A DNA stretch of 64,000 bases. It comes from an uncultured Actinomycetes bacterium (GTDB lineage Bacteria > Actinomycetota > Thermoleophilia > UBA2241). The notes below the pieces were generated by a model, which saw only the letters and a program-made list of their open reading frames with translations, was not told the origin of the DNA and searched no databases. How positions within the stretch are numbered: the stretch's first letter is position 1; each line of letters opens with the position of its first letter. The stretch covers positions 448,001 to 512,000 of the forward strand of contig CAVPVX010000007.1 in assembly GCA_963709345.1 (NCBI GenBank), in the 5' to 3' direction. The translations under genes were made by a program, and so were the position numbers. This document shows, piece after piece, positions 8,886 through 19,854 of this stretch.

Positions 8886-8915
8886 ATGGCAGTGGCCACG
8901 TGAAGCCGCTACAAT
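8886..8915 (+). promoter_or_regulatory. Putative internal promoter ahead of recR-por operon
   Basis: TACAAT at 8910-8915 with TGGCAG 17 nt upstream, in an unusually long ybaB-recR spacer. Confidence 0.45.
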
Positions 8916-9004
8916 TGGAAGTCGCGCCCGCGGGCTGCGTCACCGCCGGGTGCGCCTATTCATGGCACTGCATATCGACTCACGCTGCCGCGAGGAGAAC
9001 GAGA

Positions 9005-9607
9005 GTGTATTCACCGGCCGTCGAGCGTCTGATCACCGAGCTGGCCAAGCTCCCCGGCATCGGGCCCCGCACGGCGCAGCGCCTCGCCTTCCACATGCTG
9101 AGGCTGCGGCCTGACGAGATCCTTCCCCTGGCCGATGCGATCATGGAGGTCAAGGAGAAGATCGGCTTCTGCAGCCGCTGCTTCAACCTCGCCGAGGGAG
9201 ACCTCTGCGTCATCTGTGCCGATACCAGGCGCGACCCGCGGCTCCTCTGCGTGGTCGAGCAGCCGTTCGACATCGTGACCATCGAGCGCACGCGTGAGTT
9301 CCGCGGCTACTACCACGTGCTCGGTGGCGCGCTCAGCCCACTCGACGGCGTCGAGCCCGGCGACCTCCGCATCGCGGAGCTGGCCGAGCGCGTCGACGAC
9401 GACCTCGAAGAAGTCATCCTGGCGACCAACCCCACCATGACCGGTGAGGCGACCGCCATGTACATCGCCGACCTGCTGCCGAGCCGCGTGCGCGTGACCC
9501 GCCTCGCAAGCGGCCTGCCGGTCGGCGGCGACCTTGAATACGCGGACGAGCTCACGCTGGGCCGCGCCCTCTCCGGGCGGCGCAGCCTCAGGCGTGGAGA
9601 GGAGTGA
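9005..9607 (+). CDS. recR: Recombination mediator RecR
   Basis: LPGIGPRTAQRLAF HhH, C4 zinc finger, Toprim ATNPTMTGEATA; GAGGAG RBS before GTG. Confidence 0.97.
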   Translation: MYSPAVERLITELAKLPGIGPRTAQRLAFHMLRLRPDEILPLADAIMEVKEKIGFCSRCFNLAEGDLCVICADTRRDPRLLCVVEQPFDIVTIERTREFRGYYHVLGGALSPLDGVEPGDLRIAELAERVDDDLEEVILATNPTMTGEATAMYIADLLPSRVRVTRLASGLPVGGDLEYADELTLGRALSGRRSLRRGEE

Positions 9608-9609
9608 CC

Positions 9610-10221
9610 ATGGCGACCAAGAGTGGGGCCACGAAGCAGCCCAAGGCACCCAGCGGCCTCACGGAGATCCGCTGGCACGGCCGCGGCGGCCAGGGGGCCG
9701 TCACGGCGGCCAAGATGGTCGCCGAACTGGCGCTCGGCGAGAAGAAGTACTTCCAGGCGTTCCCCGAGTACGGGCCCGAGCGCTCGGGCGCGCCGATCGT
9801 CGCCTTCACGCGCGTCAGCGACGAGCCTATCCAGGTGTACGCCGGCGTCGAGCACCCGCAGATCGTCGTCGTGCTCGACCCGTCGCTGCTCGGCGTCGTC
9901 GACGTCACCAAGGGCGCGCCGGACGACGCCATCGTGCTCGTCAACAGCGAGATGACCCCCGCCGAGCTGCGCAAGCACTACAAGCTCGAGGGCTTCCGGT
10001 ACTGCACGATCGCGGCGACCCGCATCGCCACCGAGACGATCAAGCGGCCCATCCCCAACACCCCCATGGTCGGCGCCCTCACGCGCATCACGGGGCTCTT
10101 CCCGATCGACGACGTCGTCGCGTTCCTGCGCGAGGACTTCGGCAAGAAGTTCCCGCCCAAGGTGGTCGAAGGCAACATCAACGCGATCACCCGCAGCTAC
10201 GAGGAGGTCAAGGCCGAATGA
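9610..10221 (+). CDS. porC: Pyruvate/2-oxoacid:ferredoxin oxidoreductase gamma subunit
   Basis: EIRWHGRGGQGAVTAA, FPEYGPERSGAP, PNTPMVGA; alternative GTG start at 9604 overlaps the recR stop. Confidence 0.93.
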   Translation: MATKSGATKQPKAPSGLTEIRWHGRGGQGAVTAAKMVAELALGEKKYFQAFPEYGPERSGAPIVAFTRVSDEPIQVYAGVEHPQIVVVLDPSLLGVVDVTKGAPDDAIVLVNSEMTPAELRKHYKLEGFRYCTIAATRIATETIKRPIPNTPMVGALTRITGLFPIDDVVAFLREDFGKKFPPKVVEGNINAITRSYEEVKAE

Positions 10222-10604
10222 CCGTCGACAAGAAGGCCGGGGCCAAGAAGCCGGTCCCCCTCAAGAAGCCCCGCGCCCGCAAGGCCGCGACGAAGAAGCC
10301 CGCGTGGGACATCAGCGATGTCGACTCGTGGGGCCCCGAGCGACACGAGCTCGGCGCGACGATCATCGAAGCCGGGAACTCCGTGTACAACGAGACCGGC
10401 GGCTGGCGCTCGATGGTCCCCGAGATCGACAGGGCGAAGTGCGACGGCTGCATGCTCTGCTACTTCTACTGCCCCGACGCCTCGATCGTGATCGAGGGCG
10501 GCAAGGCCGTCGGCGTCGACCTCGAGCACTGCAAGGGCTGCGGCATCTGCGCCAGGGAGTGCCCCACCGACGCCATCGTCATGAAGATCGACGCGAAGGA
10601 GTGA
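10218..10604 (+). CDS. porD: POR delta subunit, 2x[4Fe-4S] ferredoxin-like
   Basis: TGGWRSMVP, CDGCMLCYFYCPD, CKGCGICARECP; ATGA overlap with porC. Confidence 0.92.
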   Translation: MTVDKKAGAKKPVPLKKPRARKAATKKPAWDISDVDSWGPERHELGATIIEAGNSVYNETGGWRSMVPEIDRAKCDGCMLCYFYCPDASIVIEGGKAVGVDLEHCKGCGICARECPTDAIVMKIDAKE

Positions 10605-10606
10605 AC

Positions 10607-11810
10607 GTGGCCCCCACCGACACCGAGATCCTCGCGGTCACCGGGAACGAGGCGGCCGCCGAAGCCATGGGTCAGATCGACCCGGACGTGGTGTGCGCCT
10701 ACCCCATCACCCCGCAGACCGAGGTCGTCCAGCTGTTCGCCCAGATGGTCGCCGACGGCAAGGTCGAGAGCGAGTTCGTCACCGTCGAGAGTGAGCACTC
10801 GGCGATGAGCGCCGTGATCGGCTCGGCGGCCGGCGGCGCGCGGACGATGACTGCCACCTCCTCCCAGGGCTACGCCCTCATGTGGGAGGTCCTGTACGTC
10901 GCCGCGAGCTACCGGCTCCCGGTCGTCATGACCACCGTCAACCGCGCCCTCTCCGGCCCCATCAACATCCACTGCGACCACAGCGACACCATGGGCGGCC
11001 GCGACGCCGGCTGGATCCAGCTCTACGGCGAGAACCACCAGGAGGCCTACGACAACTGCATTCAGGCAGTCCGCATCGGCGAGCACGCCGACGTCCGTCT
11101 GCCGGTCACGCACATGTACGACGGCTACGTCATCAGCGGCGCCATCGGCCCGCTGCAGATGCTCACGAAGGAGCAGGTGCAGGAGTTCATCGGCCCGTAT
11201 CACGCGATCAACCCCATGCTCGACACCGAGCACCCCGGTGACGGTGGGTCCCTTCGACGGCCTGCACGGCTGGTACTTCGAGCATAAGGTGGCGCAGAAC
11301 CGCGCCATGGACCGAGCCCTCACGGTGATCCAGGACGTCGCCGACGAGTACGCGGAGCTCAGCGGCCGTCAGTACGGCCTGCTCGACCCGTACCGTCTGG
11401 AGGACGCCGAGGTCGCCATCGTCGTGGTCGGCTCCACCGCCGGCACGACGCGCATGACGGTCGACAAGTTGCGCGCCCAGGGCGTCAAGGCCGGCATGGT
11501 GCGCGTGCGCGCCTTCCGGCCCTTCCCGCACGAGGCATACGCCAAGGCGCTCGAGCACGTCAAGGTCGTGGGCGTCATGGACCGTGCCGATTCGTTCGGC
11601 GCCCAGGGCGGCCCCGTCTTCCTCGAGGTCCGCGCGGCCCTGTACGACAGCGACCCGCGGCCCCAGGTCCTCCCGTTGATCTACGGGCTCGGCGGCCGCG
11701 ACATCTTCCCCAACAACATCGAGCAGGCGTTCGCAGTGCTCCAGAACGCCGCGCAGAGCAAGACGCGGACCTCGACGGAGCGTCGGTACCTCAACCTGCG
11801 CAAGGACTGA
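10607..11810 (+). CDS. porA: POR alpha subunit; one apparent frameshift near 11235 in a C run
   Basis: GNEAAA, AYPITPQT, ESEHSAMS, TATSSQG, NRALSGPINIHCDHSD; C-terminal half in another frame (FRPFP, YGLGGRD). Confidence 0.9.
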
Positions 11811-11820
11811 GGTGACCAGC

Positions 11821-12646
11821 ATGCCCAGAGACAAGGCACGGAACGGCAAGACGAGGATCGAGCCCAAGGGTTCCGCCCTCTACGAAGTCCTCAAGGGCAT
11901 CGACTTCGAGCGCCGCGAGCTGGTCGACAAGAGCAAGGGCGTCGGCCTGTTCGACCTCGTCAAGGCCAGGGACGGCGGCTACCGCTGCTACTCCTGCACC
12001 CTGTGCGAGCGCACTTGCCCCGTCGACTGCATCGAGATCGACTACTGCCCGGAGTTCGAGGAACTGCCCTTCGACGTCGAGGCCGAGCGCGCCGCCGCGC
12101 TGGCGACGCTGCCCGGCGAGAGCTGCGGCGCGGGCGCCGCCTGCGTGATGGGCGAGAAGCCGGCCGGCTACATGCCCGAGATCGACATGAAGCTCTTCGA
12201 CCCCGTGATCGCCGGGCTGCGTGACGGCACCGGCCTCGTCGAGGCGCTGCACGCCACCCAGGACGCCTTCGGCTGGCTGCCGCGCGTGGCGCTCGAGGAG
12301 ATCGCCGGCGAGATGAACCTGCCGTTCTCGCGGGTCTTCGGCGTGGCCAGCTTCTACGCGCAGTTCCGCCTCCAGCCGGTGGGCAAGCACGTGATCGACG
12401 TGTGCATGGGCACCGCCTGCCACGTGGCCGGCGCGCCGCTCGTCGTCGGAGGCCTTCGCCCAGGAGCTCGATACTCCCGTCGGCACCACGACACCCGACG
12501 GCTGTTCACGCTGCAGACGGTGAACTGCATCGGCGCCTGCGCCCTGGCCCCGGCCGTGCGCATCGGCGACGACGACACCCACGGGCGCGTCACGCCCCAG
12601 CGAGGCGCGAAAGCTCATCCGTCAGCTCCGCAAGAAGGAGGCCTGA
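11821..12646 (+). CDS. NuoE/HydC (BfuC)-like [2Fe-2S] subunit with an extra N-terminal NuoI-like CxxCxxCxxxCP segment; frameshifts at ~12450-12610
   Basis: ALHATQDAFGWLP, VASFYAQF, VCMGTACHVAG, VNCIGACALAP; N-terminal CYSCTLCERTCP. Confidence 0.85.
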
Positions 12647-12647
12647 G

Positions 12648-14577
12648 GTGGCGGCCGGCAAGACCAACGGGTCCGCCCGCCAGGCACGCATCGACGAAGC
12701 CCTCAAAGCCGCCCACCGGCCCGAGCTCGCGACCGGCGGCGAAGACACCGTCAAGATACGCGTCTGCGCCGGCTCGACCTGCCACGCCTGGGCCGGACGG
12801 CGCTGAGCCACGCCCTCACCAAGGCGATCGCGAAGCGTGGCCTCACCGACAGCGTCAGCCGTGGTGCTCACCGGCTGTCACGGCCTGTGCCAGGAGGGCC
12901 CCATCGTGGTGGTCCACCCGCAGGGCATCTTCTACCCGAGGCTCAAGGCCAAGGACATCGCCGAGATCGTCGACACGAGCGTCGTCGGCGACGGCGTCGT
13001 CGAGCGCCTGCTCTACAAGGACCCCGCGACCGGTGAGGCCGTCCCGCTCGAGAAGGACGTACCCTTCTAGCGCTGGCCAGACACGCGTCGTGCTGCGCCC
13101 TCAACGGCTACGATCGACCCCTGTCGATCGACGACTACATCTCGCACGGCGGCTACGCCGCGCTGGCAAGCGTGCTCAAGCAGGCCGACCCCGAAGCCGT
13201 GATCGCCGAGGTCGAGAAGAGCGGCCTGCGCGGCCGCGGCGGCGCCGGCTTCCCCGACGGGCAGGAAGTGGCGCTTCTGCCGCGCCAATCCGGGCGAGAA
13301 GCACTACGTCATCTGCAACGGCGACGAGGGCGACCCCGGCGCGTTCATGGACCGCGTCGGTGCTCGAGGACGACCCGCACCGCGTGATCGAGGGCATGCT
13401 CATCGCCGCCTTCGCGATCGGCGCCGACGAGGGCTACGTGTACGTGCGCCACGAGTACCCGTTCGCCGTCGCGCGCCTGCGCGACGCGCTGGAGCAGGCG
13501 CGTGAGCGCGGCCTGCTCGACGACGACATCCTCGGCTACGGGCTTGGAGCTTCGACCTGCGCATCAACCAGGGCGCCGGCGCCTTCGTCTGCGGCGAGTC
13601 GACCGCCCTCACCGCCTCCATCGAGGGACATCGCGGCATGCCGCGCGGCAAGCACATCCGCACGGTCGGCCCGCGGCCTCTGGGGTCAGCCGACCAACCT
13701 CAACAACGTCGAGAGCTACGCCAACGGTGCCGTGGATCATCAACCACGGCGCCGACGCCTTCGCGGCGATGGGCACGGAGACGTGCAAAGGGCACCAAGA
13801 TCTTCTCGCTCACCGGCAAGGTACGGAACTCCGGCCTCGTCGAGGTCCCCATGGGCGCCACGCTGCGCGAAGTGATCTTCGACATCGGTGGCGGCATGCA
13901 GGAGGGCCACGAGTTCAAGGCCGTGCAGCTCGGCGGCCCGCAGCGGGGGCTGCCTGCCCGCCGAGCTCCTCGACACGCCCATCGACTTCGAGAACCTCAT
14001 GGCCAAGTACGGCTCGATGATGGGCTCCGGCGGCATGGTCGTCGTCGACGAGACCACCTGTATGGTCGACTTCGCCAAGTTCTTCTTCCGGTTCACCGCG
14101 GAGGAGAGCTGCGGCAAGTGCGTGCCGTGCCGCGTCGGCACCCAGCGCATGCTGGAGATCCTCGAGCGCATCACCGCGGGCATGGGCACCGTCGACGACA
14201 TCGACCTGCTCGAACGGCTCAGCGGCGACATCGTCGAGGGTTCGCTCTGCCAGCTCGGCGGCAGCGCTCCCAACCCCGTGCTCACCATGCTGCGGTACTT
14301 CCGCGACGAGGTCATGGCTCACGTGGTCGACCACCGCTGCCCGGCCAAGGTGTGCCGGCCGCTGATCCGCTACACCATCGACGCCGACGCCTGCACCGGC
14401 TGCCACGTCTGCGTTGACGCCTGCCCGACCAACGCCATCAGCGGCGAGCGCAAGCAGCTGCACCTCATCGACCAGAAGCTCTGCATCCAGTGCGACACCT
14501 GCCGCCAGGTCTGCAAATTCGACGCCATCCCCGTCGTCGACGCGGAACCGGCGCTGATCGAAGGGAGGCGGCAGTGA
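12648..14577 (+). CDS. NuoF/HydB (BfuB)-like FMN/NADH-binding subunit with N-terminal [2Fe-2S] domain and C-terminal 2x[4Fe-4S]; several frameshifts 12790-13940
   Basis: Stitched across frames: [103 protein letters not shown]. Confidence 0.88.
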
Positions 14578-17500
14578 GCACGCGTACCAAAGCCGCCGTG
14601 AGACTCACCATCAACGGCACGACGCTGAACGCCCGCGAGGGCGAGACCGTCCTGCAGGTCGCGCGCCGCGAAGGCATCGAGATCCCGGCGCTGTGCCACG
14701 AAGAGGGCACAGCGGCGTGGGGCGCCTGCCGCCTCTGCATGGTCGAGGTCGAAGGCCTCGACAAGCTGCAAGCGGCCTGCACCACATGGGTCAAGGACGG
14801 CCAGGTGGTCAAGACCGACACGCCGCGTGTCCGCGCCCGGCGCGAGAGCTACCTCAAGATGTACCTCTCGGACCACAACGCCTACTGCGAGGCGCCCTGC
14901 TCGGACGCCTGCCCGACGCACATCGACATCCCCGCGTACATGGCGGCGCTGGCCGGCGGCGACGCATCCGCGGCCGCCGCGATCGTGCGCGAGGAGCTGC
15001 CGTTCCCCGGCATCCTCGGGCGCGTCTGCCCGCGCTACTGCGAGCCGGTGTGCCGGCGCGGCGACATCGACGAGCCGATCGCCATCTGCGCCCTGCACCG
15101 GGCGGCCGCAGACCACAGCGACACGCTGCTCGTGCCCGGCATCCCGACCGGCAGACGCGTCGCCGTCATCGGCGCCGGCCCGGCCGGCCTCGCCGCAGCC
15201 TGGTTCCTGACCGAACGCGGCAACCAGGTCACGGTCTACGACGCGAACGAGAAGGCCGGCGGCTCGCTCCGCTACAGCATTCCCGAGTTCCGTCTCCCGG
15301 AGAAGGTCGTCGACAAGGAGCTCGCGCCGTTGTGGCAGGCGGGCGTGCGCTTCGCCGGCGAGTCGGAGCTCGGCTACGAGGTCGATCCCGACGGGCTCTT
15401 CGACGCCGGCTTCGACGCCGTCGTGATCAGCGTCGGCACGTGGGAGGAGCCCGAGCACATCCTCCCCGGCGACGACGTCGCGCTCCGCGGCCTCGAGCTG
15501 CTGCGCCGCGCCCGCGAGGGCCGCGCGGTCAAGTTCACACAGAAGGTCGCCGTGATCGGCGACGGCATCACCGCCCTCGACGTGGCGCGCACGGCGCGGC
15601 GCAAGGGGGCCAAGCAGGTCGTCGTCATCGCCCAGCACGACGCCGAGAGCATCCCGGCCGGCGCGCGCGAGCTCGCGGCCGCACTCGAGGAGGGCGTCAA
15701 GTTCGAGTTCGGCACCCTCGCCAAGAAGGTCAAGACCAGGTCCGGCAAGGCCCAAGGCGTGGAGTGCGTGCGCGTGGTGCGCGAAAAGGGCCGCACCAAG
15801 GAGGTCCGCGGCTCGCGCTTCGAGATGGCCGCCACGACCGTGGTGCTGGCCACCGGGTACGCACCCAAGCTCGGAGACAGCGCCGACTACCTACCGCTCT
15901 CGGACGGCGTCCGGCTGATGGCGAACCACTACACCGGGCGCACGCCCGAAGACGGCGTGTTCGCGGCCGGCGACGCCAGCACCGGCCCCCGGTCCGTCAT
16001 CCACGCCGTCGCCGGCGGCAAGCGCACGGCGCTCGCCGTGGACGCCTGGCTCCGCGGCGAGGACCTCGAGGAGCTCGAGGAGAACCTCGCCGTGTTCGCC
16101 GGCCTCCCCTACCTCGAGCAGCTCAAAGACGAGGAGCGGCTGGGCGAGCTCGGCCTGCGCCTCGCCGAGCGCAGCCCCGTGTGGCTCAAGATGGGCGCGA
16201 GCGCCGAACCTGCGGCTCGCGCCACCATGCCCAAGGTCGGCAAGGTCAAGCGCCTCTCGGCGACCGACGTCGAGGTCGAAAAGGGGTACAGCCTCGCCGC
16301 CGCCCGCTCCGAAGCCATGCGCTGCCTGCAGTGCGAGTGCCCGAGCAACGGCGCCTGCGACCTGCAGAGGCTCGGGGTGGAGTACGGCGTCTCCGACAAC
16401 GAGCTCATCGTCAAGGGCGGCCTCGTGCGCAAGGTCGAGGCGCAGTACGAGCACCCCTTCATCCGCCGCGACATGGATCGCTGCATCGCCTGCGGCAAGT
16501 GCGTGCGCGTGTGCCGGGACGTGGCCGGCCCGGCCTGCTACGACTTCACCGGGCGAGGCTTCGCGATCAACGTCGACACACCGTACGGCGAGGCCCTCCA
16601 GCTCGCCGATTGCATCTCCTGCGGGCGCTGCGTCACCTCGTGCCCGACCGGCGCGCTCACCTACAACGAGCGTGAGCTCAGCTCGTTCCGCGTCGACGAG
16701 AGCCGCTGCATCATGTGCCACGAGTGCGTGGACGTCTGCCCCGTCGACGCTCTCAAGGAGACCAATCACTTCGAGAACGCGCGCACGAAGTGGCTCGAGC
16801 TCGTGGCTCAGGGCAGCCAGCTCGCCGGCGGGCACCGCATGTGCGCCGGCTGCGGCGCGCCGATCGTCGTCCGCCAGGTCCTCATGGGCACGAGCGACCC
16901 GGTGGTCGTGAGCGCGGCGACCGGCTGCCTGGAGGTGAGCACGACGATCTATCCGTACACATCGTGGAAAGGCAGCTACATCCACACCGCCTTCGAGAAC
17001 GCGGCCGCCACGCTGAGCGGCGTTGAGACCGCCTACCGCGCCCTCAAGAAGAAGGGCAAGCTGGAGGAGAACGTCAAGTTCATCGCCTTCGGCGGCGACG
17101 GCGGCACCTACGACATCGGCCTGCAGTCGCTGTCGGGCGCCATGGAGCGCGGCCACGACATGCTCTACGTCTGCTACGACAACGGCGCCTACATGAACAC
17201 CGGTTTCCAGCGCTCCGGCGCCACCCCACATGGCGCCTGGACGACGACGAGCCCCGTGGGCAAGGAGACGGCGGGCAAACTCCAGAACCGCAAGAACCTC
17301 ACCGACATCATGATCGCTCACGAGCTAGGCTACGTGGCTCAGGCCTCGCCGCACGACCCGCGCGATCTCGTGCGCAAGGCGTCCAAGGCACTGGCGACTC
17401 CGGGCGCCTCGTTCCTCAACGTCCTGGCGCCCTGCCCCCGCGGCTGGCGCGCAGACGGAGCCGAGACCATCGACCTCGCCCGCGAGGCCGTCAACACCTG

Positions 17501-17756
17501 CTACTGGCCGCTTTTCGAGGTGGTGGACGGCGAGTACCGCCTCACCTATCGGCCGCACCACAAGATGCCGCTCATCCCCTGGCTCAAGCGCCAGGGCCGC
17601 TTCGCCCACCTGTTCAAGCCCGGGAACGAGGAGACGCTCCTCAACCTCGAGGCCTGGGTGGACAAGGAATGGGAGAAGCTGCTGCGCAAGTGCGACGAGC
17701 CCAGCGAGGCCGACTGGCAAGACTACCTGCAGTCCAACGGCTGCCTGCTGCGCTGA
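14574..17756 (+). CDS. Multidomain fusion: NuoG/HydA (BfuA)-type Fe-S scaffold + GltD/NfnB-like FAD domain + extra 4Fe-4S motif + POR beta (TPP-binding) subunit
   Basis: Single uninterrupted ORF: IPALC...CRLC...AACTT, APCSDACP, GRVCPRYCEPVC, VIGAGPAG, VFAAGD, RCLQCEC, CIACGKCVRVC, CISCGRCVTSCP, CIMCHECVDVCP, then GHRMCAGC, GGDGGTYDIG, YDNGAYMNTG, PCPRGW. Confidence 0.9.
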   Translation: MSTRTKAAVRLTINGTTLNAREGETVLQVARREGIEIPALCHEEGTAAWGACRLCMVEVEGLDKLQAACTTWVKDGQVVKTDTPRVRARRESYLKMYLSDHNAYCEAPCSDACPTHIDIPAYMAALAGGDASAAAAIVREELPFPGILGRVCPRYCEPVCRRGDIDEPIAICALHRAAADHSDTLLVPGIPTGRRVAVIGAGPAGLAAAWFLTERGNQVTVYDANEKAGGSLRYSIPEFRLPEKVVDKELAPLWQAGVRFAGESELGYEVDPDGLFDAGFDAVVISVGTWEEPEHILPGDDVALRGLELLRRAREGRAVKFTQKVAVIGDGITALDVARTARRKGAKQVVVIAQHDAESIPAGARELAAALEEGVKFEFGTLAKKVKTRSGKAQGVECVRVVREKGRTKEVRGSRFEMAATTVVLATGYAPKLGDSADYLPLSDGVRLMANHYTGRTPEDGVFAAGDASTGPRSVIHAVAGGKRTALAVDAWLRGEDLEELEENLAVFAGLPYLEQLKDEERLGELGLRLAERSPVWLKMGASAEPAARATMPKVGKVKRLSATDVEVEKGYSLAAARSEAMRCLQCECPSNGACDLQRLGVEYGVSDNELIVKGGLVRKVEAQYEHPFIRRDMDRCIACGKCVRVCRDVAGPACYDFTGRGFAINVDTPYGEALQLADCISCGRCVTSCPTGALTYNERELSSFRVDESRCIMCHECVDVCPVDALKETNHFENARTKWLELVAQGSQLAGGHRMCAGCGAPIVVRQVLMGTSDPVVVSAATGCLEVSTTIYPYTSWKGSYIHTAFENAAATLSGVETAYRALKKKGKLEENVKFIAFGGDGGTYDIGLQSLSGAMERGHDMLYVCYDNGAYMNTGFQRSGATPHGAWTTTSPVGKETAGKLQNRKNLTDIMIAHELGYVAQASPHDPRDLVRKASKALATPGASFLNVLAPCPRGWRADGAETIDLAREAVNTCYWPLFEVVDGEYRLTYRPHHKMPLIPWLKRQGRFAHLFKPGNEETLLNLEAWVDKEWEKLLRKCDEPSEADWQDYLQSNGCLLR

Positions 17757-17832: not shown

Positions 17833-17870
17833 GAGACCAGGGTGCATCCTGCGCCCTGGTCTCCTCCTTT
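17833..17870 (+). terminator. Second hairpin with pyrimidine tail between the operon and acs
   Basis: GAGACCAGGG...CCCTGGTCTC followed by CTCCTTT. Confidence 0.5.
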
Positions 17871-17967: not shown

Positions 17968-19854
17968 ATGTCAGAACTCACAGGCGAGGTCTGGTATCCG
18001 CCGTCGAGCGCACTGACCGGTGTGACCGGCGACGATCGCGAGGCGCTGCTGCGCCTCGCGGCGACCGATCCGCAGGCCTTCTGGGTGGCGTGGGCGGAGA
18101 AGCTCGACTGGTACGAGCCCTGGTCGCAGGTGCTTGACGCAAGCGAGGCGCCGTTCTATCGCTGGTTCTGCGACGGCAAGACCAACATCGTGCTCAACGC
18201 CCTGGACCGCCACCAGACGACCGCCACCCGCAACAAGCTTGCCCTGATCTGGCAGGGCGAGGCCGGAGAGGAGCGGACCTTCTCCTATCACGACCTGCAC
18301 CGGAAAGTCGGTCAGTTCGCGACCATCCTGAGGAGCATGGGGGTCGGCAAGGGAGACCGCGTCACGATCTACCTCCCGCGCATACCGGAGCTCGTCATCG
18401 CCATGCTCGCCTGCGCCAAGATAGGCGCCGTGCACTCGGCGGTCTACGGAGGGTTCTCGGTGGAGGCGCTGCACAGCCGGATCGAGCTCTCCGAGTCGCG
18501 TGTGATCGTGACCGCCGACGGCGGCTTCATACGAGGCAAGCTCGTGCCACTCAAGGCCATCGCCGACGAAGCCGTGAAGCGTGCCGGCGTTGTCGAGCAC
18601 GTGATCGTCATCCGCCACACCGGCGAGACCGTCCCCATGGAGCCCGACCGCGACTACTACTACGACGAGCTCAAAGCCCTCCCCATGGCCCGCACCCCCA
18701 TCGAGACGGTGGTCATGGATGCCGAGGACCCGCTGTTCCTGCTGTTCACCTCGGGCACCACGGGCCAACCCAAGGCGATCCTGCACACCCACGGCGGGTA
18801 TCAGGTCGGCATCACGGCGACGCTCCAGCTGGCCTTCGACCTGCGCCCCGAAGACCGCTGGTGGTGCACCGCCGATCCAGGCTGGATCACCGGTCACAGC
18901 TACGCTGTCTACGGCCCGCTCATCCTCGGCGCCACGTCGATCATGTACGAAGGCGCGCTCACCCATCCGTACCCCGACCGCTGGTGGCGCATCGTCGAGA
19001 AGTACGGCGTCAACATCCTCTACACGGCGCCCACGGCCGTGCGTGCCCTGATGCGGTTCGGCGATGCCTGGCCCAAACGCCGGGACCTGAGCTCGCTGCG
19101 CCTTCTGGGATCCGTGGGAGAGCCCATCAACCCGGACGCCTGGCGCTGGCTCAGCCACATAGTCGGAGGTGATCGCTGCTCCATCATCGACACATGGTGG
19201 CAGACGGAGACGGGGATGTTCATGATCACCCCACTGCCCGGCCAGCCGCTCAAGCCCGGGTCGGCAGGCAAACCGTTCCCGGGCATCACGATCGAGATCC
19301 TCGACGATGACGGTCAGCCCGTGAACGCCGGTGAGGAAGGCAATCTGGTGGTCACCTCTCCATGGCCTGCCATGATGCGCACCGTGTACGGCGATCCCGA
19401 GCGCTATAAGTCGCAGTACTGGGAGAAGTACCCCGGCAAGTACCAGTCCGGTGACTCGGCGCGTATGGACGAAGACGGCAATGTGTGGATCATCGGACGC
19501 ACAGACGAGGTCATCAAGGTCTCCGGCTACCGGCTGGGCACTGCCGAGATCGAAGCCGCTCTGGGCAGCCACCCGCTGGTCGGCGAGGCGGCCGCCATCG
19601 GCATCCCCGATGAGTTGCGCGGCAACGTGATCTACTGCTACGTCGTCTTGCGCGCGAGCGCCGAACCGACGCCGACTCTCGTGGAAGAGCTGATCCAGCA
19701 TGTCGGCAAGGAGGTCGGCCCCATCGCGCGGCCGGCGCGGCTGGAGATCGTCGACGAGCTGCCGCGCACACGCTCCGGCAAGATCGTGAGGCGGCTCTTG
19801 AAGGCGCGCGCACTCGGCCTGCCGGATGGTGACGTCTCTACCCTCGAGGACTGA
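17968..19854 (+). CDS. acs: Acetyl-CoA synthetase (AMP-forming)
   Basis: FTSGTTGQPKAILH, ADPGWITGHSY, SVGEPINP, DTWWQTETG, PRTRSGKIVRR. Confidence 0.93.
   Translation: MSELTGEVWYPPSSALTGVTGDDREALLRLAATDPQAFWVAWAEKLDWYEPWSQVLDASEAPFYRWFCDGKTNIVLNALDRHQTTATRNKLALIWQGEAGEERTFSYHDLHRKVGQFATILRSMGVGKGDRVTIYLPRIPELVIAMLACAKIGAVHSAVYGGFSVEALHSRIELSESRVIVTADGGFIRGKLVPLKAIADEAVKRAGVVEHVIVIRHTGETVPMEPDRDYYYDELKALPMARTPIETVVMDAEDPLFLLFTSGTTGQPKAILHTHGGYQVGITATLQLAFDLRPEDRWWCTADPGWITGHSYAVYGPLILGATSIMYEGALTHPYPDRWWRIVEKYGVNILYTAPTAVRALMRFGDAWPKRRDLSSLRLLGSVGEPINPDAWRWLSHIVGGDRCSIIDTWWQTETGMFMITPLPGQPLKPGSAGKPFPGITIEILDDDGQPVNAGEEGNLVVTSPWPAMMRTVYGDPERYKSQYWEKYPGKYQSGDSARMDEDGNVWIIGRTDEVIKVSGYRLGTAEIEAALGSHPLVGEAAAIGIPDELRGNVIYCYVVLRASAEPTPTLVEELIQHVGKEVGPIARPARLEIVDELPRTRSGKIVRRLLKARALGLPDGDVSTLED

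What the first reader, a model, noticed from the sequence alone, without database searches (positions are those of the whole stretch)
9610..17756. Candidate electron-bifurcating pyruvate/2-oxoacid oxidoreductase: POR covalently joined to a HydABC/Bfu module
Seen: a tightly coupled operon porC-porD-porA-nuoE-like-nuoF-like-fusion. No standalone POR beta gene is present. The TPP-binding beta subunit (GHRMCAGC, GGDGG...YDN) is instead the in-frame C-terminus of a ~1060-aa protein whose N-terminal part is a NuoG/HydA-type Fe-S scaffold with an inserted GltD/NfnB-like FAD domain. Established: HydABC-type (Bfu) enzymes couple NAD(H) and ferredoxin to a third reaction whose catalytic site is on or attached to subunit A (H-cluster, Mo/W centre, or NADP site). 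As I recall, POR-linked Bfu members have been proposed from genomics, but I know of none characterised, nor of this triple BfuA-GltD-PorB fusion. Inference: a six-subunit complex that either splits pyruvate electrons between NAD+ and ferredoxin/NADP+, or runs in reverse to drive reductive carboxylation of acetyl-CoA with an internal low-potential wire. YPITP and NRALSGPINIH in PorA favour pyruvate over oxalate (YPIRP).
Basis: partly seen in the sequence, partly recalled or inferred. Interest (0 to 1): 0.92.

Follow-up and report, generated by a model that had tools for sequence, protein, structure and literature searches.

The report
Pyruvate oxidoreductase fused to bifurcating module
An uncultured actinobacterium encodes a pyruvate-splitting enzyme whose catalytic subunit is welded onto the input subunit of an NADH/ferredoxin electron-bifurcating module, which is genetic evidence that a predicted but never purified enzyme type is one physical machine.

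Summary
The fusion is real. Window 14574-17756 is one open frame: 2Fe-2S domain, NfnL/GltD-like flavin domain, Fe-S domain, extra CxxCxxCxxxCP motif, PorB. Of 67 related loci holding both parts, 53 carry it as one ORF of at least 1000 codons and none has a stop at the junction. All 56 loci with enough upstream sequence have the same porC-porD-porA-bfuC-bfuB-fusion order.

These are most likely long-read consensus errors.

The best reading is a Por-linked member of the Bfu (HydABC-type) family, built on an Nfn/Stn-type scaffold. PorB replaces the dead-end Fdh-like domain of NfnA. The NADPH signature is lost in 109 of 109 full-length homologs. No biochemistry exists, so bifurcation and direction are inferred.

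New here: a NuoI-like two-cluster domain looks split between the BfuC N-terminus and the BfuA-PorB linker. A complex model supports this (0.72; best control 0.00).

"Por-Bfu" was predicted in 2022 with separate subunits in other phyla. This scan has already reported the fused form in other genomes. It is a new variant of a known kind.

The parts
9604..10221 (+). porC (gamma subunit, 205 aa), intact. Its GTG start overlaps the recR stop by 4 nt.
   Evidence: Pfam POR, E 1.2e-38. NCBIfam TIGR02175 scores 196 bits against a cut-off of 81. A single tblastn HSP, 84% identical to L001.
10218..10604 (+). porD (delta subunit, 2x[4Fe-4S], 128 aa) with a Lys/Ala-rich N-terminal extension, intact.
   Evidence: Pfam Fer4 families. 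NCBIfam TIGR02179 scores 91.8 bits against a cut-off of 60. Boundaries.
10601..11810 (+). porA (alpha subunit). As assembled it is split over two frames by one extra base at about 11237.
   Evidence: POR_N in frame 10604-11287 and PFOR_II in frame 11238-11810. Insertion relative to L001, L011 and L046. Contigs of X1, X2 and X15 lack this base. It is an intact 400-aa gene in L001.
11812..12646 (+). bfuC (NuoE/HydC-like, about 273 aa in relatives), with 3 frame-breaking indels at 12448, 12501 and 12600.
   Evidence: 2Fe-2S_thioredx. Indels. Boundary.
11812..12186 (+). N-terminal extension of BfuC (about 125 aa) with 8 conserved Cys. Residues 38-74 resemble the first half of NuoI.
   Evidence: C59, C62, C65, C69, C79, C105 and C111 are invariant and C73 nearly invariant in 28 sequences. 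The same pattern holds at 90% consensus in 60 sequences. NuoI model positions 28-63 match. Window 11965-12045 matches model positions 37-63.
12648..14577 (+). bfuB (NuoF/HydB-like, 633 aa in relatives), with 11 frame-breaking indels in this assembly.
   Evidence: Pfam pieces lie in four frames. Indels. Codon-position divergence against L001 is 0.118/0.087/0.267. The intact L001 ortholog matches 7t2r_B at E 6e-237.
14574..17756 (+). bfuA::porB fusion gene (1060 aa), intact.
14598..14873 (+). N-terminal [2Fe-2S] domain of the fusion (aa 9-100). C41, C52, C55 and C69 are invariant.
   Evidence: Fer2_4. Invariant columns.
14874..16073 (+). NfnL/GltD-like domain (aa 101-500), with two [4Fe-4S] sites and an FAD fold. 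Its NAD(P)H subdomain lacks the NADPH signature.
   Evidence: Fer4_20 and Pyr_redox_2. Alignments to 9bov_A, 8oh5_C, 9n5u_A, 4ylf_B and 2vdc_G. Conservation.
16308..16661 (+). NuoG/HydA-type Fe-S domain (aa 579-696): CxxCxCx5C plus two CxxCxxCxxxC motifs.
   Evidence: Fer4_Nqo3. Aligned to the end of the region shared with NfnA. Invariant Cys.
16665..16814 (+). Linker with the third CxxCxxCxxxCP motif (C712-C722), resembling the second half of NuoI. It stands where NfnA has its Fdh-like domain.
   Evidence: NuoI model positions 69-118 match. The predicted interface places BfuC C65 and C69 next to C718 and C722.
16815..17756 (+). PorB part (TPP site and proximal [4Fe-4S]): GHRMCAGC, TGC, GDGG...YDN, APCP.
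   Evidence: TPP_enzyme_C. 9bt4_C at E 4.9e-78. PRK11865 scores 357 bits against a cut-off of 405. Mean column identity 0.89.
11237..13941 (.). Cluster of 15 frame-breaking indels: 13 insertions and 2 deletions.
17833..17863 (+). Terminator-like hairpin (14-bp stem) between the fusion gene and acs.
   Evidence: This is a consensus match only; 4 were found against 3.6 expected in the region.

Best explanation
The six genes encode one complex. It combines a four-subunit-type pyruvate (2-oxoacid):ferredoxin oxidoreductase with a BfuABC (HydABC-type) flavin/iron-sulfur module, and the TPP subunit PorB is the C-terminal domain of BfuA.

Inferred mechanism: the TPP site exchanges electrons through the PorB [4Fe-4S] and the two PorD clusters. 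These connect to a NuoI-like pair of clusters assembled from the BfuC N-terminus and the BfuA-PorB linker, then to the BfuA clusters, and finally to the B1-FMN-C1 site of BfuBC. There the pyruvate/acetyl-CoA+CO2 couple is coupled to NAD(H) at the FMN and to ferredoxin at the C-terminal clusters of BfuB. The proposed reaction is 2 pyruvate + 2 CoA + NAD+ + 2 Fd(ox) <-> 2 acetyl-CoA + 2 CO2 + NADH + 2 Fd(red).

The scaffold derives from an Nfn/Stn-type cassette, the same one that feeds this genome's complex-I-like operon. PorB has taken the place of NfnA's dead-end Fdh-like domain, and the former NADPH site has lost its signature.

Shown: the covalent fusion, conserved gene order, cofactor motifs and homologies. 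Inferred: complex assembly, the electron path, coupling to both NAD and ferredoxin, direction and substrate. The frame breaks in porA, bfuC and bfuB of this window are taken to be assembly errors.
For: Fusion and synteny:
- 109 of the 120 listed homologs are at least 1000 aa, and 100 of those 109 have the FAD motif upstream of GHRxCxGC.
- In 53 of 67 loci holding both parts, one ORF of at least 1000 codons spans them. In the other 14 the ORF holding PorB is 426-981 codons.
- 56 of 56 loci with at least 5.2 kb upstream have porC, porD, porA, nuoE and nuoF in order, and in 58 of 58 the PorB part follows directly.
- Short-read contigs of relatives bridge the junction without gaps: X1 record 7 covers 16122-17117, and X15 record 16 covers 16692-16909.

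Homology:
- Residues 9-696 match NfnA/StnA chains 9bov_A, 8oh5_C and 9n5u_A. Residues 748-1030 match PorB 9bt4_C.
- BfuB of L001 aligns end to end with bifurcating B subunits. It keeps the N-terminal 2Fe-2S Cys, [20 protein letters not shown] and two C-terminal CxxCxxCxxxC motifs.
- In Csac NfnA the A2-A4-A5 branch into the pterin-less Fdh-like domain is a dead end (PMC11829005, section 11). That domain is what PorB replaces.

NADPH site:
- The signature is absent in 0 of 109 homologs but present in the paralog of the Nuo-type operon.

Split NuoI:
- The two halves of the NuoI model hit the BfuC N-terminus and the linker.
- No NuoI scores over the cut-off in this 98%-complete genome.
- Complex model: score 0.72 (runs 0.72, 0.74, 0.70) against a best control of 0.00. 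That mark was reached by 58 of 80 solved complexes and 2 of 110 mismatched pairs. Contacts agree in at least 73%, and partner pLDDT is at least 55. The closest pairs are C722-C65 and C718-C69. The pass may partly reflect likeness to the known ferredoxin/NuoI fold.

Precedent and context:
- Wor-Bfu couples a low-potential donor to NAD and Fd together, as reported in PMC9304861 (passage read).
- The genome holds several [FeFe]-hydrogenase/NuoEF sets, so it is an anaerobe with ferredoxin metabolism.
Against: - No biochemical or structural data exist for any member. Por-Bfu itself is uncharacterised.
- Pyruvate (about -500 mV) could reduce NAD+ or ferredoxin without bifurcation, so coupling is not thermodynamically required (the paper says so too).
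- Characterised non-bifurcating NuoEF-type relatives exist, and sequence alone cannot exclude that here.
- The FAD fold of the NfnL-like domain is still well conserved in most members, so a second nucleotide site of changed specificity is not excluded.
- PorA, PorB and PorC fall below NCBIfam's pyruvate-synthase equivalog cut-offs: 481 against 550, 357 against 405, and 198 against 270. The 2-oxoacid is therefore not established.
- As assembled, three of the six genes in this window are frame-broken, and the raw reads of this assembly could not be found.
- The His175/Cys172 variant at the A7 site is shared with the NADPH-signature paralog, so it says nothing about loss of the NADPH site.
Confidence: 0.55

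Rival explanations
1. The complex is a non-bifurcating pyruvate:NAD(P)+ oxidoreductase. POR electrons run down the Fe-S wire to the FAD of the NfnL-like domain and/or the FMN of BfuB, and reduce NAD(P)+ without obligatory ferredoxin coupling. Recalled, not read here: this would be analogous to the five-subunit phenylglyoxylate:NAD+ oxidoreductase of Azoarcus, or to non-bifurcating NuoEF-containing dehydrogenases.
For: - NCBIfam models of 'NADH-dependent phenylglyoxylate dehydrogenase' subunits alpha, beta, gamma and delta hit PorA, fusion residues 716-1035, PorC and PorD, all below their cut-offs.
- The FAD Rossmann motif and GG.LRY.IPEFRLP are conserved.
- The donor potential makes bifurcation unnecessary.
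- Non-bifurcating BfuABC homologs are known.
Against: - BfuB keeps every extra domain of the bifurcating B subunits, and its six best PDB matches are all from Bfu-type enzymes.
- The NADPH signature is lost, and the nucleotide subdomain is the least conserved region at 0.49 mean column identity.
- No PadH-type model is among the 25 best hits of the flavin domain.
Confidence: 0.2
2. The complex works as an anabolic pyruvate synthase. NADH plus reduced ferredoxin (confurcation) drive the reductive carboxylation of acetyl-CoA, as proposed for Por-Bfu of Dehalococcoides. This differs from the best explanation only in physiological direction.
For: - This is the proposal of PMC9304861 for Por-Bfu.
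- An acetate-CoA ligase gene lies 212 nt downstream in this genome. It scores 839 bits against TIGR02188's cut-off of 725.
- The por genes score best against 'pyruvate synthase' models.
Against: - acs is downstream in 0 of 78 related loci, and a terminator-like hairpin separates it from the operon.
- The genome has several [FeFe]-hydrogenase sets and no acetyl-CoA synthase (CdhC) match, which fits a fermenter that oxidises pyruvate.
- Direction cannot be read from sequence.
Confidence: 0.3
3. In this particular genome the operon is a decaying pseudogene cluster, and the 15 indels are real mutations.
For: - The indels are clustered: 15 in 2.7 kb and none in the adjacent 3.2-kb fusion gene.
- The raw reads of the assembly could not be examined.
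- Another nuoF paralog on contig C3 is also spread over three frames.
Against: - Substitutions in bfuB against L001 are concentrated at third positions (0.118/0.087/0.267). Positions 1 and 2 are less diverged than between two intact orthologs (0.169/0.154/0.28).
- 13 of the 15 events are insertions, whereas bacterial mutation favours deletions (established knowledge).
- Contigs of relatives roughly 92-95% identical lack the extra bases at 9 of the 13 insertion sites listed.
- Many other long-read MAG loci of this family show multi-frame hits in the same genes.
Confidence: 0.12

Closest known systems
Por-Bfu, a predicted class of the BfuABC family (Schut et al. 2022, PMC9304861; passages read)
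   Same: BfuA, BfuB and BfuC genes sit in one cluster with the four POR subunit genes. Pyruvate/acetyl-CoA is the proposed third substrate beside NAD(H) and ferredoxin. Neither has been characterised.
   Different: The published class has 12 sequences from Chloroflexi and syntrophic Proteobacteria, with seven separate subunits and a 'Type 2' BfuA. Here PorB is fused to BfuA, BfuA is of the Nfn type with an NfnL/GltD-like domain, BfuC has a Cys-rich NuoI-like extension, and the hosts are Thermoleophilia/Actinomycetota. The words 'fused', 'fusion', 'GltD' and 'Actinobacteria' do not occur in the main text. The supplements could not be seen.
NfnABC / StnABC (Nfn-Bfu) transhydrogenases: C. saccharolyticus 9bov, S. 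ovata 8oh5, T. sibiricus 9n5u
   Same: Fusion residues 9-696 align with NfnA residues 4-672, covering the 2Fe-2S domain, the NfnL-like flavin domain and the Fe-S domain. BfuB aligns end to end. The subunit order is C-B-A.
   Different: PorB and a NuoI-like motif replace the Fdh-like C-terminal domain. The NADPH signature GGGNTAMD...YRR reads GDGITALD...AQH here. His175/Cys172 stand where Csac NfnA has the cluster ligand Lys170. Three POR genes are present in addition.
Four-subunit pyruvate:ferredoxin oxidoreductase / pyruvate synthase (PorABCD; solved 9bt4)
   Same: All four subunit types are present. PorB keeps the TPP motif and four cluster cysteines. The PorB part is 57-66% identical to free-standing PorB proteins of about 310 aa in other Actinomycetota.
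   Different: PorB is not a separate protein. bfuC and bfuB lie between porA and porB. NCBIfam equivalog cut-offs are not reached.
Complex-I-type operon with a split NuoI and an Stn/Nfn-type input cassette
   Same: It has the same three-gene cassette. BfuC has the NuoI first half at its N-terminus. The BfuA-like protein (41% identical over residues 9-736) ends with the NuoI second half.
   Different: There the cassette sits among nuoB, D, H, K, L, M and N and keeps the NADPH signature. Here it is joined to POR and has lost the signature.

Membership tests
Bfu (BfuABC) family | A BfuB subunit with an FMN/NADH site, an N-terminal 2Fe-2S domain, the NuoF-type 4Fe-4S and a C-terminal two-cluster domain | tested here: met
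   The L001 ortholog has Complex1_51K, NADH_4Fe-4S, 2Fe-2S_thioredx and Fer4. Its full-length alignments to 7t2r_B, 8a6t_B, 9n5u_B and 9bov_B keep the motifs. In the window itself the gene is frame-broken.
Bfu (BfuABC) family | A BfuC subunit (NuoE-like) with a 2Fe-2S cluster | tested here: met
   2Fe-2S_thioredx, E 9e-42 in L001. The Cys are conserved in 60 orthologs.
Bfu (BfuABC) family | Tightly coupled reduction or oxidation of NAD(H) and ferredoxin with a third substrate | not testable with these tools
   This needs an enzyme assay.
Por-Bfu (predicted class) | BfuABC genes clustered with the POR subunit genes | tested here: met
   56 of 56 loci with enough upstream sequence.
Por-Bfu (predicted class) | Four separate POR subunits and a Type 2 BfuA without an extra catalytic domain | tested here: not met
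   PorB is fused to BfuA, and BfuA carries an NfnL-like domain.
Por-Bfu (predicted class) | BfuB belongs to clades 35, 44 or 45 of Schut et al. | not tested
   No reference sequences of those clades were at hand, and the supplements are closed.
Nfn-Bfu / Stn | An NfnL/GltD-like FAD domain inserted in BfuA | tested here: met
   9bov_A 4-672 at E 2.2e-136.
Nfn-Bfu / Stn | An NADPH-binding signature (GxGx[TS]AxD ... [YF]RR) | tested here: not met
   0 of 109 full-length homologs have it. It is present in five solved NADPH-using relatives and in the genome's own paralog.
Nfn-Bfu / Stn | An Fdh/NuoG-like C-terminal domain of NfnA | tested here: not met
   The alignment to NfnA ends at residue 696, and PorB follows.
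PorABCD 2-oxoacid:ferredoxin oxidoreductase (pyruvate/2-ketoisovalerate family) | Alpha, beta, gamma and delta subunit domains, with the TPP motif and cluster cysteines in beta | tested here: met
   Pfam hits. TIGR02175 and TIGR02179 score over their cut-offs. Motifs. Invariant C757, C760, C785 and C954.
PorABCD 2-oxoacid:ferredoxin oxidoreductase (pyruvate/2-ketoisovalerate family) | Pyruvate as the substrate (equivalog level) | tested here: inconclusive
   The best models are pyruvate-synthase PorA, PorB and PorC, but all fall below their cut-offs. YPITP is present; its meaning is recalled, not tested.
NuoI / TYKY | Two CxxCxxCxxxCP motifs in one polypeptide that scores over the TIGR01971 cut-off | tested here: not met
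   Only half-model hits were found, on two different proteins. Nothing scores over the cut-off in the genome.
Phenylglyoxylate:NAD+ oxidoreductase (PadEFGHI) | Equivalog-level match of the subunits | tested here: not met
   All Pad models score far below their cut-offs, for example PadI at 230 against 700.

The most novel reading that the evidence does not exclude
The complex is a ferredoxin-independent pyruvate synthase/oxidase with an internal low-potential wire. The two [4Fe-4S] clusters of a NuoI-like domain are each ligated by cysteines from two different polypeptides, the BfuC N-terminus and the BfuA-PorB linker. This ties POR directly to the mobile, gating C subunit of the bifurcation site. 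Low-potential electrons made by bifurcation of NAD(P)H then never leave the enzyme and instead drive acetyl-CoA carboxylation. The cassette would be a portable 'plug' that evolution has attached both to complex I and to POR.
Probability: 0.12. Interest if true: 0.9.

Novelty: new variant of a known kind. Interest (0 to 1): 0.66.

Why it matters
Flavin-based electron bifurcation by HydABC-type (Bfu) enzymes is a central energy-saving device of anaerobes. Most predicted classes, Por-Bfu among them, rest on gene neighbourhood alone.

A conserved in-frame fusion of PorB to BfuA is much stronger evidence that POR and the bifurcating core form one machine. It also points to a defined six-gene operon for expression and cryo-EM.

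The fused form shows how such enzymes are built. A dead-end branch of the Nfn scaffold is replaced by a live catalytic subunit while the old NADPH site decays. The same cassette, carrying the two halves of a split NuoI-like domain, is used in this genome to feed a complex-I-like enzyme.

If the coupling is confirmed, it would change carbon and redox budgets inferred for widespread sediment and soil Thermoleophilia.

Tried and rejected
- Source reads. The best run holds only 0.15 of the sampled words, so the indels and the junction could be checked only against contigs of relatives.
- Genome-wide frameshift load. The GC3 phase-switch scan gave 34 clusters, several of them at contig ends. It is too unspecific to quantify assembly errors, so I made no claim from it.
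- A functional link to the downstream acs. acs follows in 0 of 78 related loci, so I rejected it as conserved context.
- Literature on phenylglyoxylate dehydrogenase PadH. The search returned nothing relevant, so that analogy rests on NCBIfam model names and recall.
- Literature on this form. 'Thermoleophilia' + 'ferredoxin oxidoreductase' + 'bifurcating' finds 0 papers. 'Por-Bfu' finds 2 papers, neither describing a fusion.
- Lys170 to His175/Cys172 as a sign of a dead NADPH branch. I rejected this because the paralog with an intact NADPH signature has the same residues.
- Structure prediction and fold search of the fusion were not run. Sequence matches to solved chains were already unambiguous, and the tool returns no coordinates.
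- Two independent adjacent enzymes. The in-frame fusion excludes this.
- NiFe hydrogenase (PF00374) and CdhC (PF03598) were not found in the 98%-complete genome. I used this as context only.

Full report
**What is in the sequence**

The window has about 70% G+C. It lies at G000:C7:448001-512000 of a 3.1-Mb, 11-contig genome rated 98% complete.

On the + strand between 9604 and 17756 lie six genes:

| Gene | Coordinates |
|---|---|
| porC | 9604-10221 |
| porD | 10218-10604 |
| porA | 10601-11810 |
| bfuC (NuoE-like) | 11812-12646 |
| bfuB (NuoF-like) | 12648-14577 |
| bfuA::porB fusion | 14574-17756 (1060 codons) |

Neighbouring genes overlap by 4 nt or are 1 nt apart. Pfam assigns the expected domains. 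In the last gene it finds Fer2_4, Fer4_20, Pyr_redox_2, Fer4_Nqo3, Fer4 and TPP_enzyme_C. A terminator-like hairpin with a 14-bp stem follows at 17833-17863, ahead of an acetate-CoA ligase gene. The upstream gene is recR, whose stop overlaps the porC start.

porA is read in two frames and bfuB in at least four. I aligned the DNA with three short-read relatives (L001, L011, L046). The window shows 13 frame-breaking insertions: 11237 in porA; 12448 and 12600 in bfuC; and 12857, 13070, 13095, 13252, 13356, 13542 (2 nt), 13668, 13726, 13787 and 13941 in bfuB. It also shows two one-base deletions, at 12501 and 12789. There are none in porC, porD or the fusion gene.

Several observations favour assembly error:
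- bfuB substitutions against L001 fall mainly on third codon positions (0.118/0.087/0.267). Positions 1 and 2 are less diverged than between two intact orthologs (0.169/0.154/0.28).
- Insertions outnumber deletions 13 to 2.
- Contigs of relatives in four public runs lack the extra bases at 9 of the 13 insertion sites (table 4; 28 further rows were not shown).
- A second nuoF paralog on contig C3 is also spread over three frames.
- Many other long-read MAG loci of this family give multi-frame hits in these genes.

I read the breaks as long-read consensus errors (about 0.8). A real, very recent decay remains possible (about 0.12). The raw reads of this assembly could not be found, since the best run holds only 0.15 of the words.

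**The fusion is real and conserved**

- A protein search returned 5096 hits among 7998 scored candidates. Of the 120 best listed, 109 are at least 1000 aa, and 100 of those 109 carry the FAD GxGxxG motif upstream of GHRxCxGC in one chain.
- A scan of one genome per species gave 78 loci. Of these, 71 are of the fused actinobacterial type (Thermoleophilia, Gaiellales, 'Actinomycetes', and one bin labelled Armatimonadia). Six, from other phyla, match only residues 4-731 at 34-37%.
- In 53 of 67 loci holding both parts, one ORF of at least 1000 codons spans them. The other 14 are cut by contig ends or frame-shifted, but the ORF that holds PorB is still 426-981 codons, so it is open across the junction.
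- All 56 loci with at least 5.2 kb upstream have porC, porD, porA, nuoE and nuoF in the same order and spacing. In 58 of 58 loci the PorB part follows directly.
- Independent short-read contigs bridge the junction without gaps. One is a 996-nt DNA contig of X1 (16122-17117). The other is a 254-nt contig from a metatranscriptome library, X15 (16692-16909). The latter is only a weak hint of expression.
- In an even sample of 401 genomes of the phylum, full-length fused matches appear in 3 (G000, G355 and G030). Most other matches are free PorB proteins of about 310 aa or unfused BfuA-like proteins of 780-1400 aa. One genome in that sample, G239, is unpublished.

**What the parts are**

- Fusion residues 9-696 align with the A subunit of the three solved Nfn/Stn-type Bfu enzymes: 9bov_A residues 4-672 (E 2.2e-136), 8oh5_C and 9n5u_A. 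Residues 748-1030 align with PorB of 9bt4 (E 4.9e-78) and with the oxalate oxidoreductase beta subunit.
- In C. saccharolyticus NfnA, electrons run FAD-A7-A6-A3-A2-A1 to the B1-FMN-C1 site and on to B3-B4. A2-A4-A5 is a dead-end branch into a pterin-less Fdh-like domain (PMC11829005, sections 7 and 11 read). The alignment to NfnA stops exactly where that Fdh-like domain begins. Here a third CxxCxxCxxxCP motif (C712-C722) and PorB stand in its place.
- The intact BfuB of L001 aligns end to end with bifurcating B subunits (7t2r_B, E 6e-237; 8a6t_B, 9n5u_B, 9bov_B, 8oh5_B, 7q4v_B). It keeps the N-terminal 2Fe-2S cysteines, [20 protein letters not shown] and both C-terminal cluster motifs.
- The por genes score best against pyruvate-synthase models but fall below equivalog cut-offs. 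The gamma and delta subfamily models are passed.
- The PorB part is the most conserved region, with mean column identity 0.89.

**The former NADPH site**

Five solved NADPH-using relatives (Csac, Tsib and Sov NfnA/StnA, T. maritima NfnB, Azospirillum GltD) share G[GA]G[ND]TAMD and YRR at the positions where the window reads GDGITALD and AQH. None of the 109 full-length homologs has this signature.

The nucleotide subdomain (residues 316-445) is the least conserved part, with mean column identity 0.49 and only 12% of columns at 90% or more. Some divergent members have also lost the GD motif of the FAD fold. The FAD Rossmann motif itself is well conserved.

I infer that NADPH is no longer a substrate. 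A site of changed specificity cannot be excluded.

**A split NuoI-like module**

- BfuC carries a conserved extension of about 125 aa with eight cysteines.
- Extension residues 38-74 hit positions 28-63 of the NuoI model TIGR01971. The fusion linker hits positions 69-118.
- Genome-wide, no NuoI scores over the cut-off. The best partial hits are these two pieces, the corresponding two pieces of a complex-I-like operon on contig C4, and a lone 508-aa NuoI-like+PorB protein.
- The C4 operon holds nuoB, D, H, a NuoE-like gene with the same extension, a NuoF-like gene, an 824-aa BfuA-like gene, and nuoK onward. It has no nuoI gene.
- Its BfuA-like protein is 41% identical to fusion residues 9-736, up to and including the third motif, and it keeps GGGFTAMD...YRR.
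- A complex model used fusion residues 620-1060, PorD, BfuC residues 1-130 (the partner) and four 4Fe-4S clusters. It scored 0.72 (runs 0.72, 0.74, 0.70) against a best control of 0.00. That mark was reached by 58 of 80 solved complexes and 2 of 110 mismatched pairs. Run contacts agree in at least 73%, and partner pLDDT is at least 55.
- The tightest pairs are strand 700-708 with 74-78, C722 with C65, and C718 with C69. This is the cross-ligation pattern of a two-cluster ferredoxin fold. The partner also touches PorD and PorB.
- The model supports binding but does not show it. The pass may owe something to the known NuoI/ferredoxin fold, and the riding ligands and my own alignments differ from the calibration.

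**How it most likely works**

The covalent link, the conserved operon and the intact Bfu-type core point to a Por-linked Bfu enzyme. The TPP site would communicate through the PorB, PorD and NuoI-like clusters with the BfuA clusters and the B1-FMN-C1 site. There the pyruvate/acetyl-CoA+CO2 couple would be tied to NAD(H) and ferredoxin.

The characterised Wor-Bfu shows that a low-potential donor can be obligatorily coupled to both acceptors (PMC9304861, passage read).

Direction is open. The genome has at least three [FeFe]-hydrogenase/NuoEF sets and no CdhC or NiFe hydrogenase match, which suggests a fermenter. The 2022 paper instead proposes pyruvate synthesis for Por-Bfu. The acs gene downstream is not conserved, being found in 0 of 78 loci.

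The rivals are a non-bifurcating pyruvate:NAD(P)+ oxidoreductase (0.2) and real pseudogenisation of this copy (0.12).

**Comparison with what is known, and novelty**

Por-Bfu was predicted in 2022 from 12 gene clusters of Chloroflexi and Proteobacteria, with seven separate subunits. It remains uncharacterised. 'Por-Bfu' occurs in two papers of the searchable library. No paper combines Thermoleophilia, ferredoxin oxidoreductase and bifurcating. The supplements of the 2022 paper, which list all sequences, could not be opened and might include this lineage.

Earlier reports of this scan describe the same fused operon in at least eight other genomes and reach the same reading. They also describe split-NuoI complex I operons in Chloroflexota and Thermoleophilia. 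I consulted them after my own analysis.

- the mapping of the 15 indels;
- the link between the two designs, namely that the POR operon carries both NuoI halves;
- the contrast between the NADPH signature kept in the complex-I paralog and lost in the POR fusion;
- the supporting complex model.

My verdict is a new variant of a known, predicted kind.

Noticed in passing
G000 contig C4:325887-339091 (L080 1887-15091), outside the window: A complex-I-like operon holds nuoB, nuoD, nuoH, a NuoE-like gene with the first half of NuoI at its N-terminus, a NuoF-like gene, an 824-aa BfuA/GltD-like gene ending in the second half of NuoI, then nuoK and large ORFs taken to be nuoL-N (not scanned). It has no nuoI gene. 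The flavin domain keeps the NADPH signature. The scan has noted the same design in other genomes.
   Followed up: partly
G000 contig C4:217096-218622, minus strand (L079 7097-8623): A lone 508-aa protein combines a complete NuoI-like two-cluster domain with PorB. It is 61% identical to fusion residues 679-1047 and has no por genes beside it. Homologs of about 485-500 aa are common. Its partner subunits are unknown.
   Followed up: partly
G000 contig C3:16242-18580, minus strand (L081): Another nuoE/nuoF pair has its nuoF spread over three frames in five pieces. This is a second cluster of frame breaks in a nuoF paralog of this assembly.
   Followed up: partly
G000 contig C7:296713-313074 and 629472-634526, outside the window: At least three [FeFe]-hydrogenase large-subunit genes lie next to NuoE/NuoF-like genes, consistent with HydABC-type sets.
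   Followed up: no
window 17968-19854 (+): An acetate-CoA ligase gene (TIGR02188, 839 bits against a cut-off of 725) lies directly downstream of the operon, behind a terminator-like hairpin. This neighbourhood is seen in 0 of 78 related loci.
   Followed up: yes
window 8900-9607 (+): The recR stop overlaps the porC start by 4 nt. recR sits in the same place in the closer relatives, and the only promoter-like match in the region lies upstream of recR at 8886-8915.
   Followed up: no
window 11812-12186 (+): Beyond the NuoI-like motif, the BfuC extension has four more conserved cysteines (C73, C79, C105, C111). They could hold a further cluster, and nothing tested here explains them.
   Followed up: no
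window 10218-10350 (+): PorD begins with a Lys/Ala/Pro-rich stretch of about 40 residues that canonical delta subunits lack. The PorD_Arch model aligns only from residue 45.
   Followed up: no
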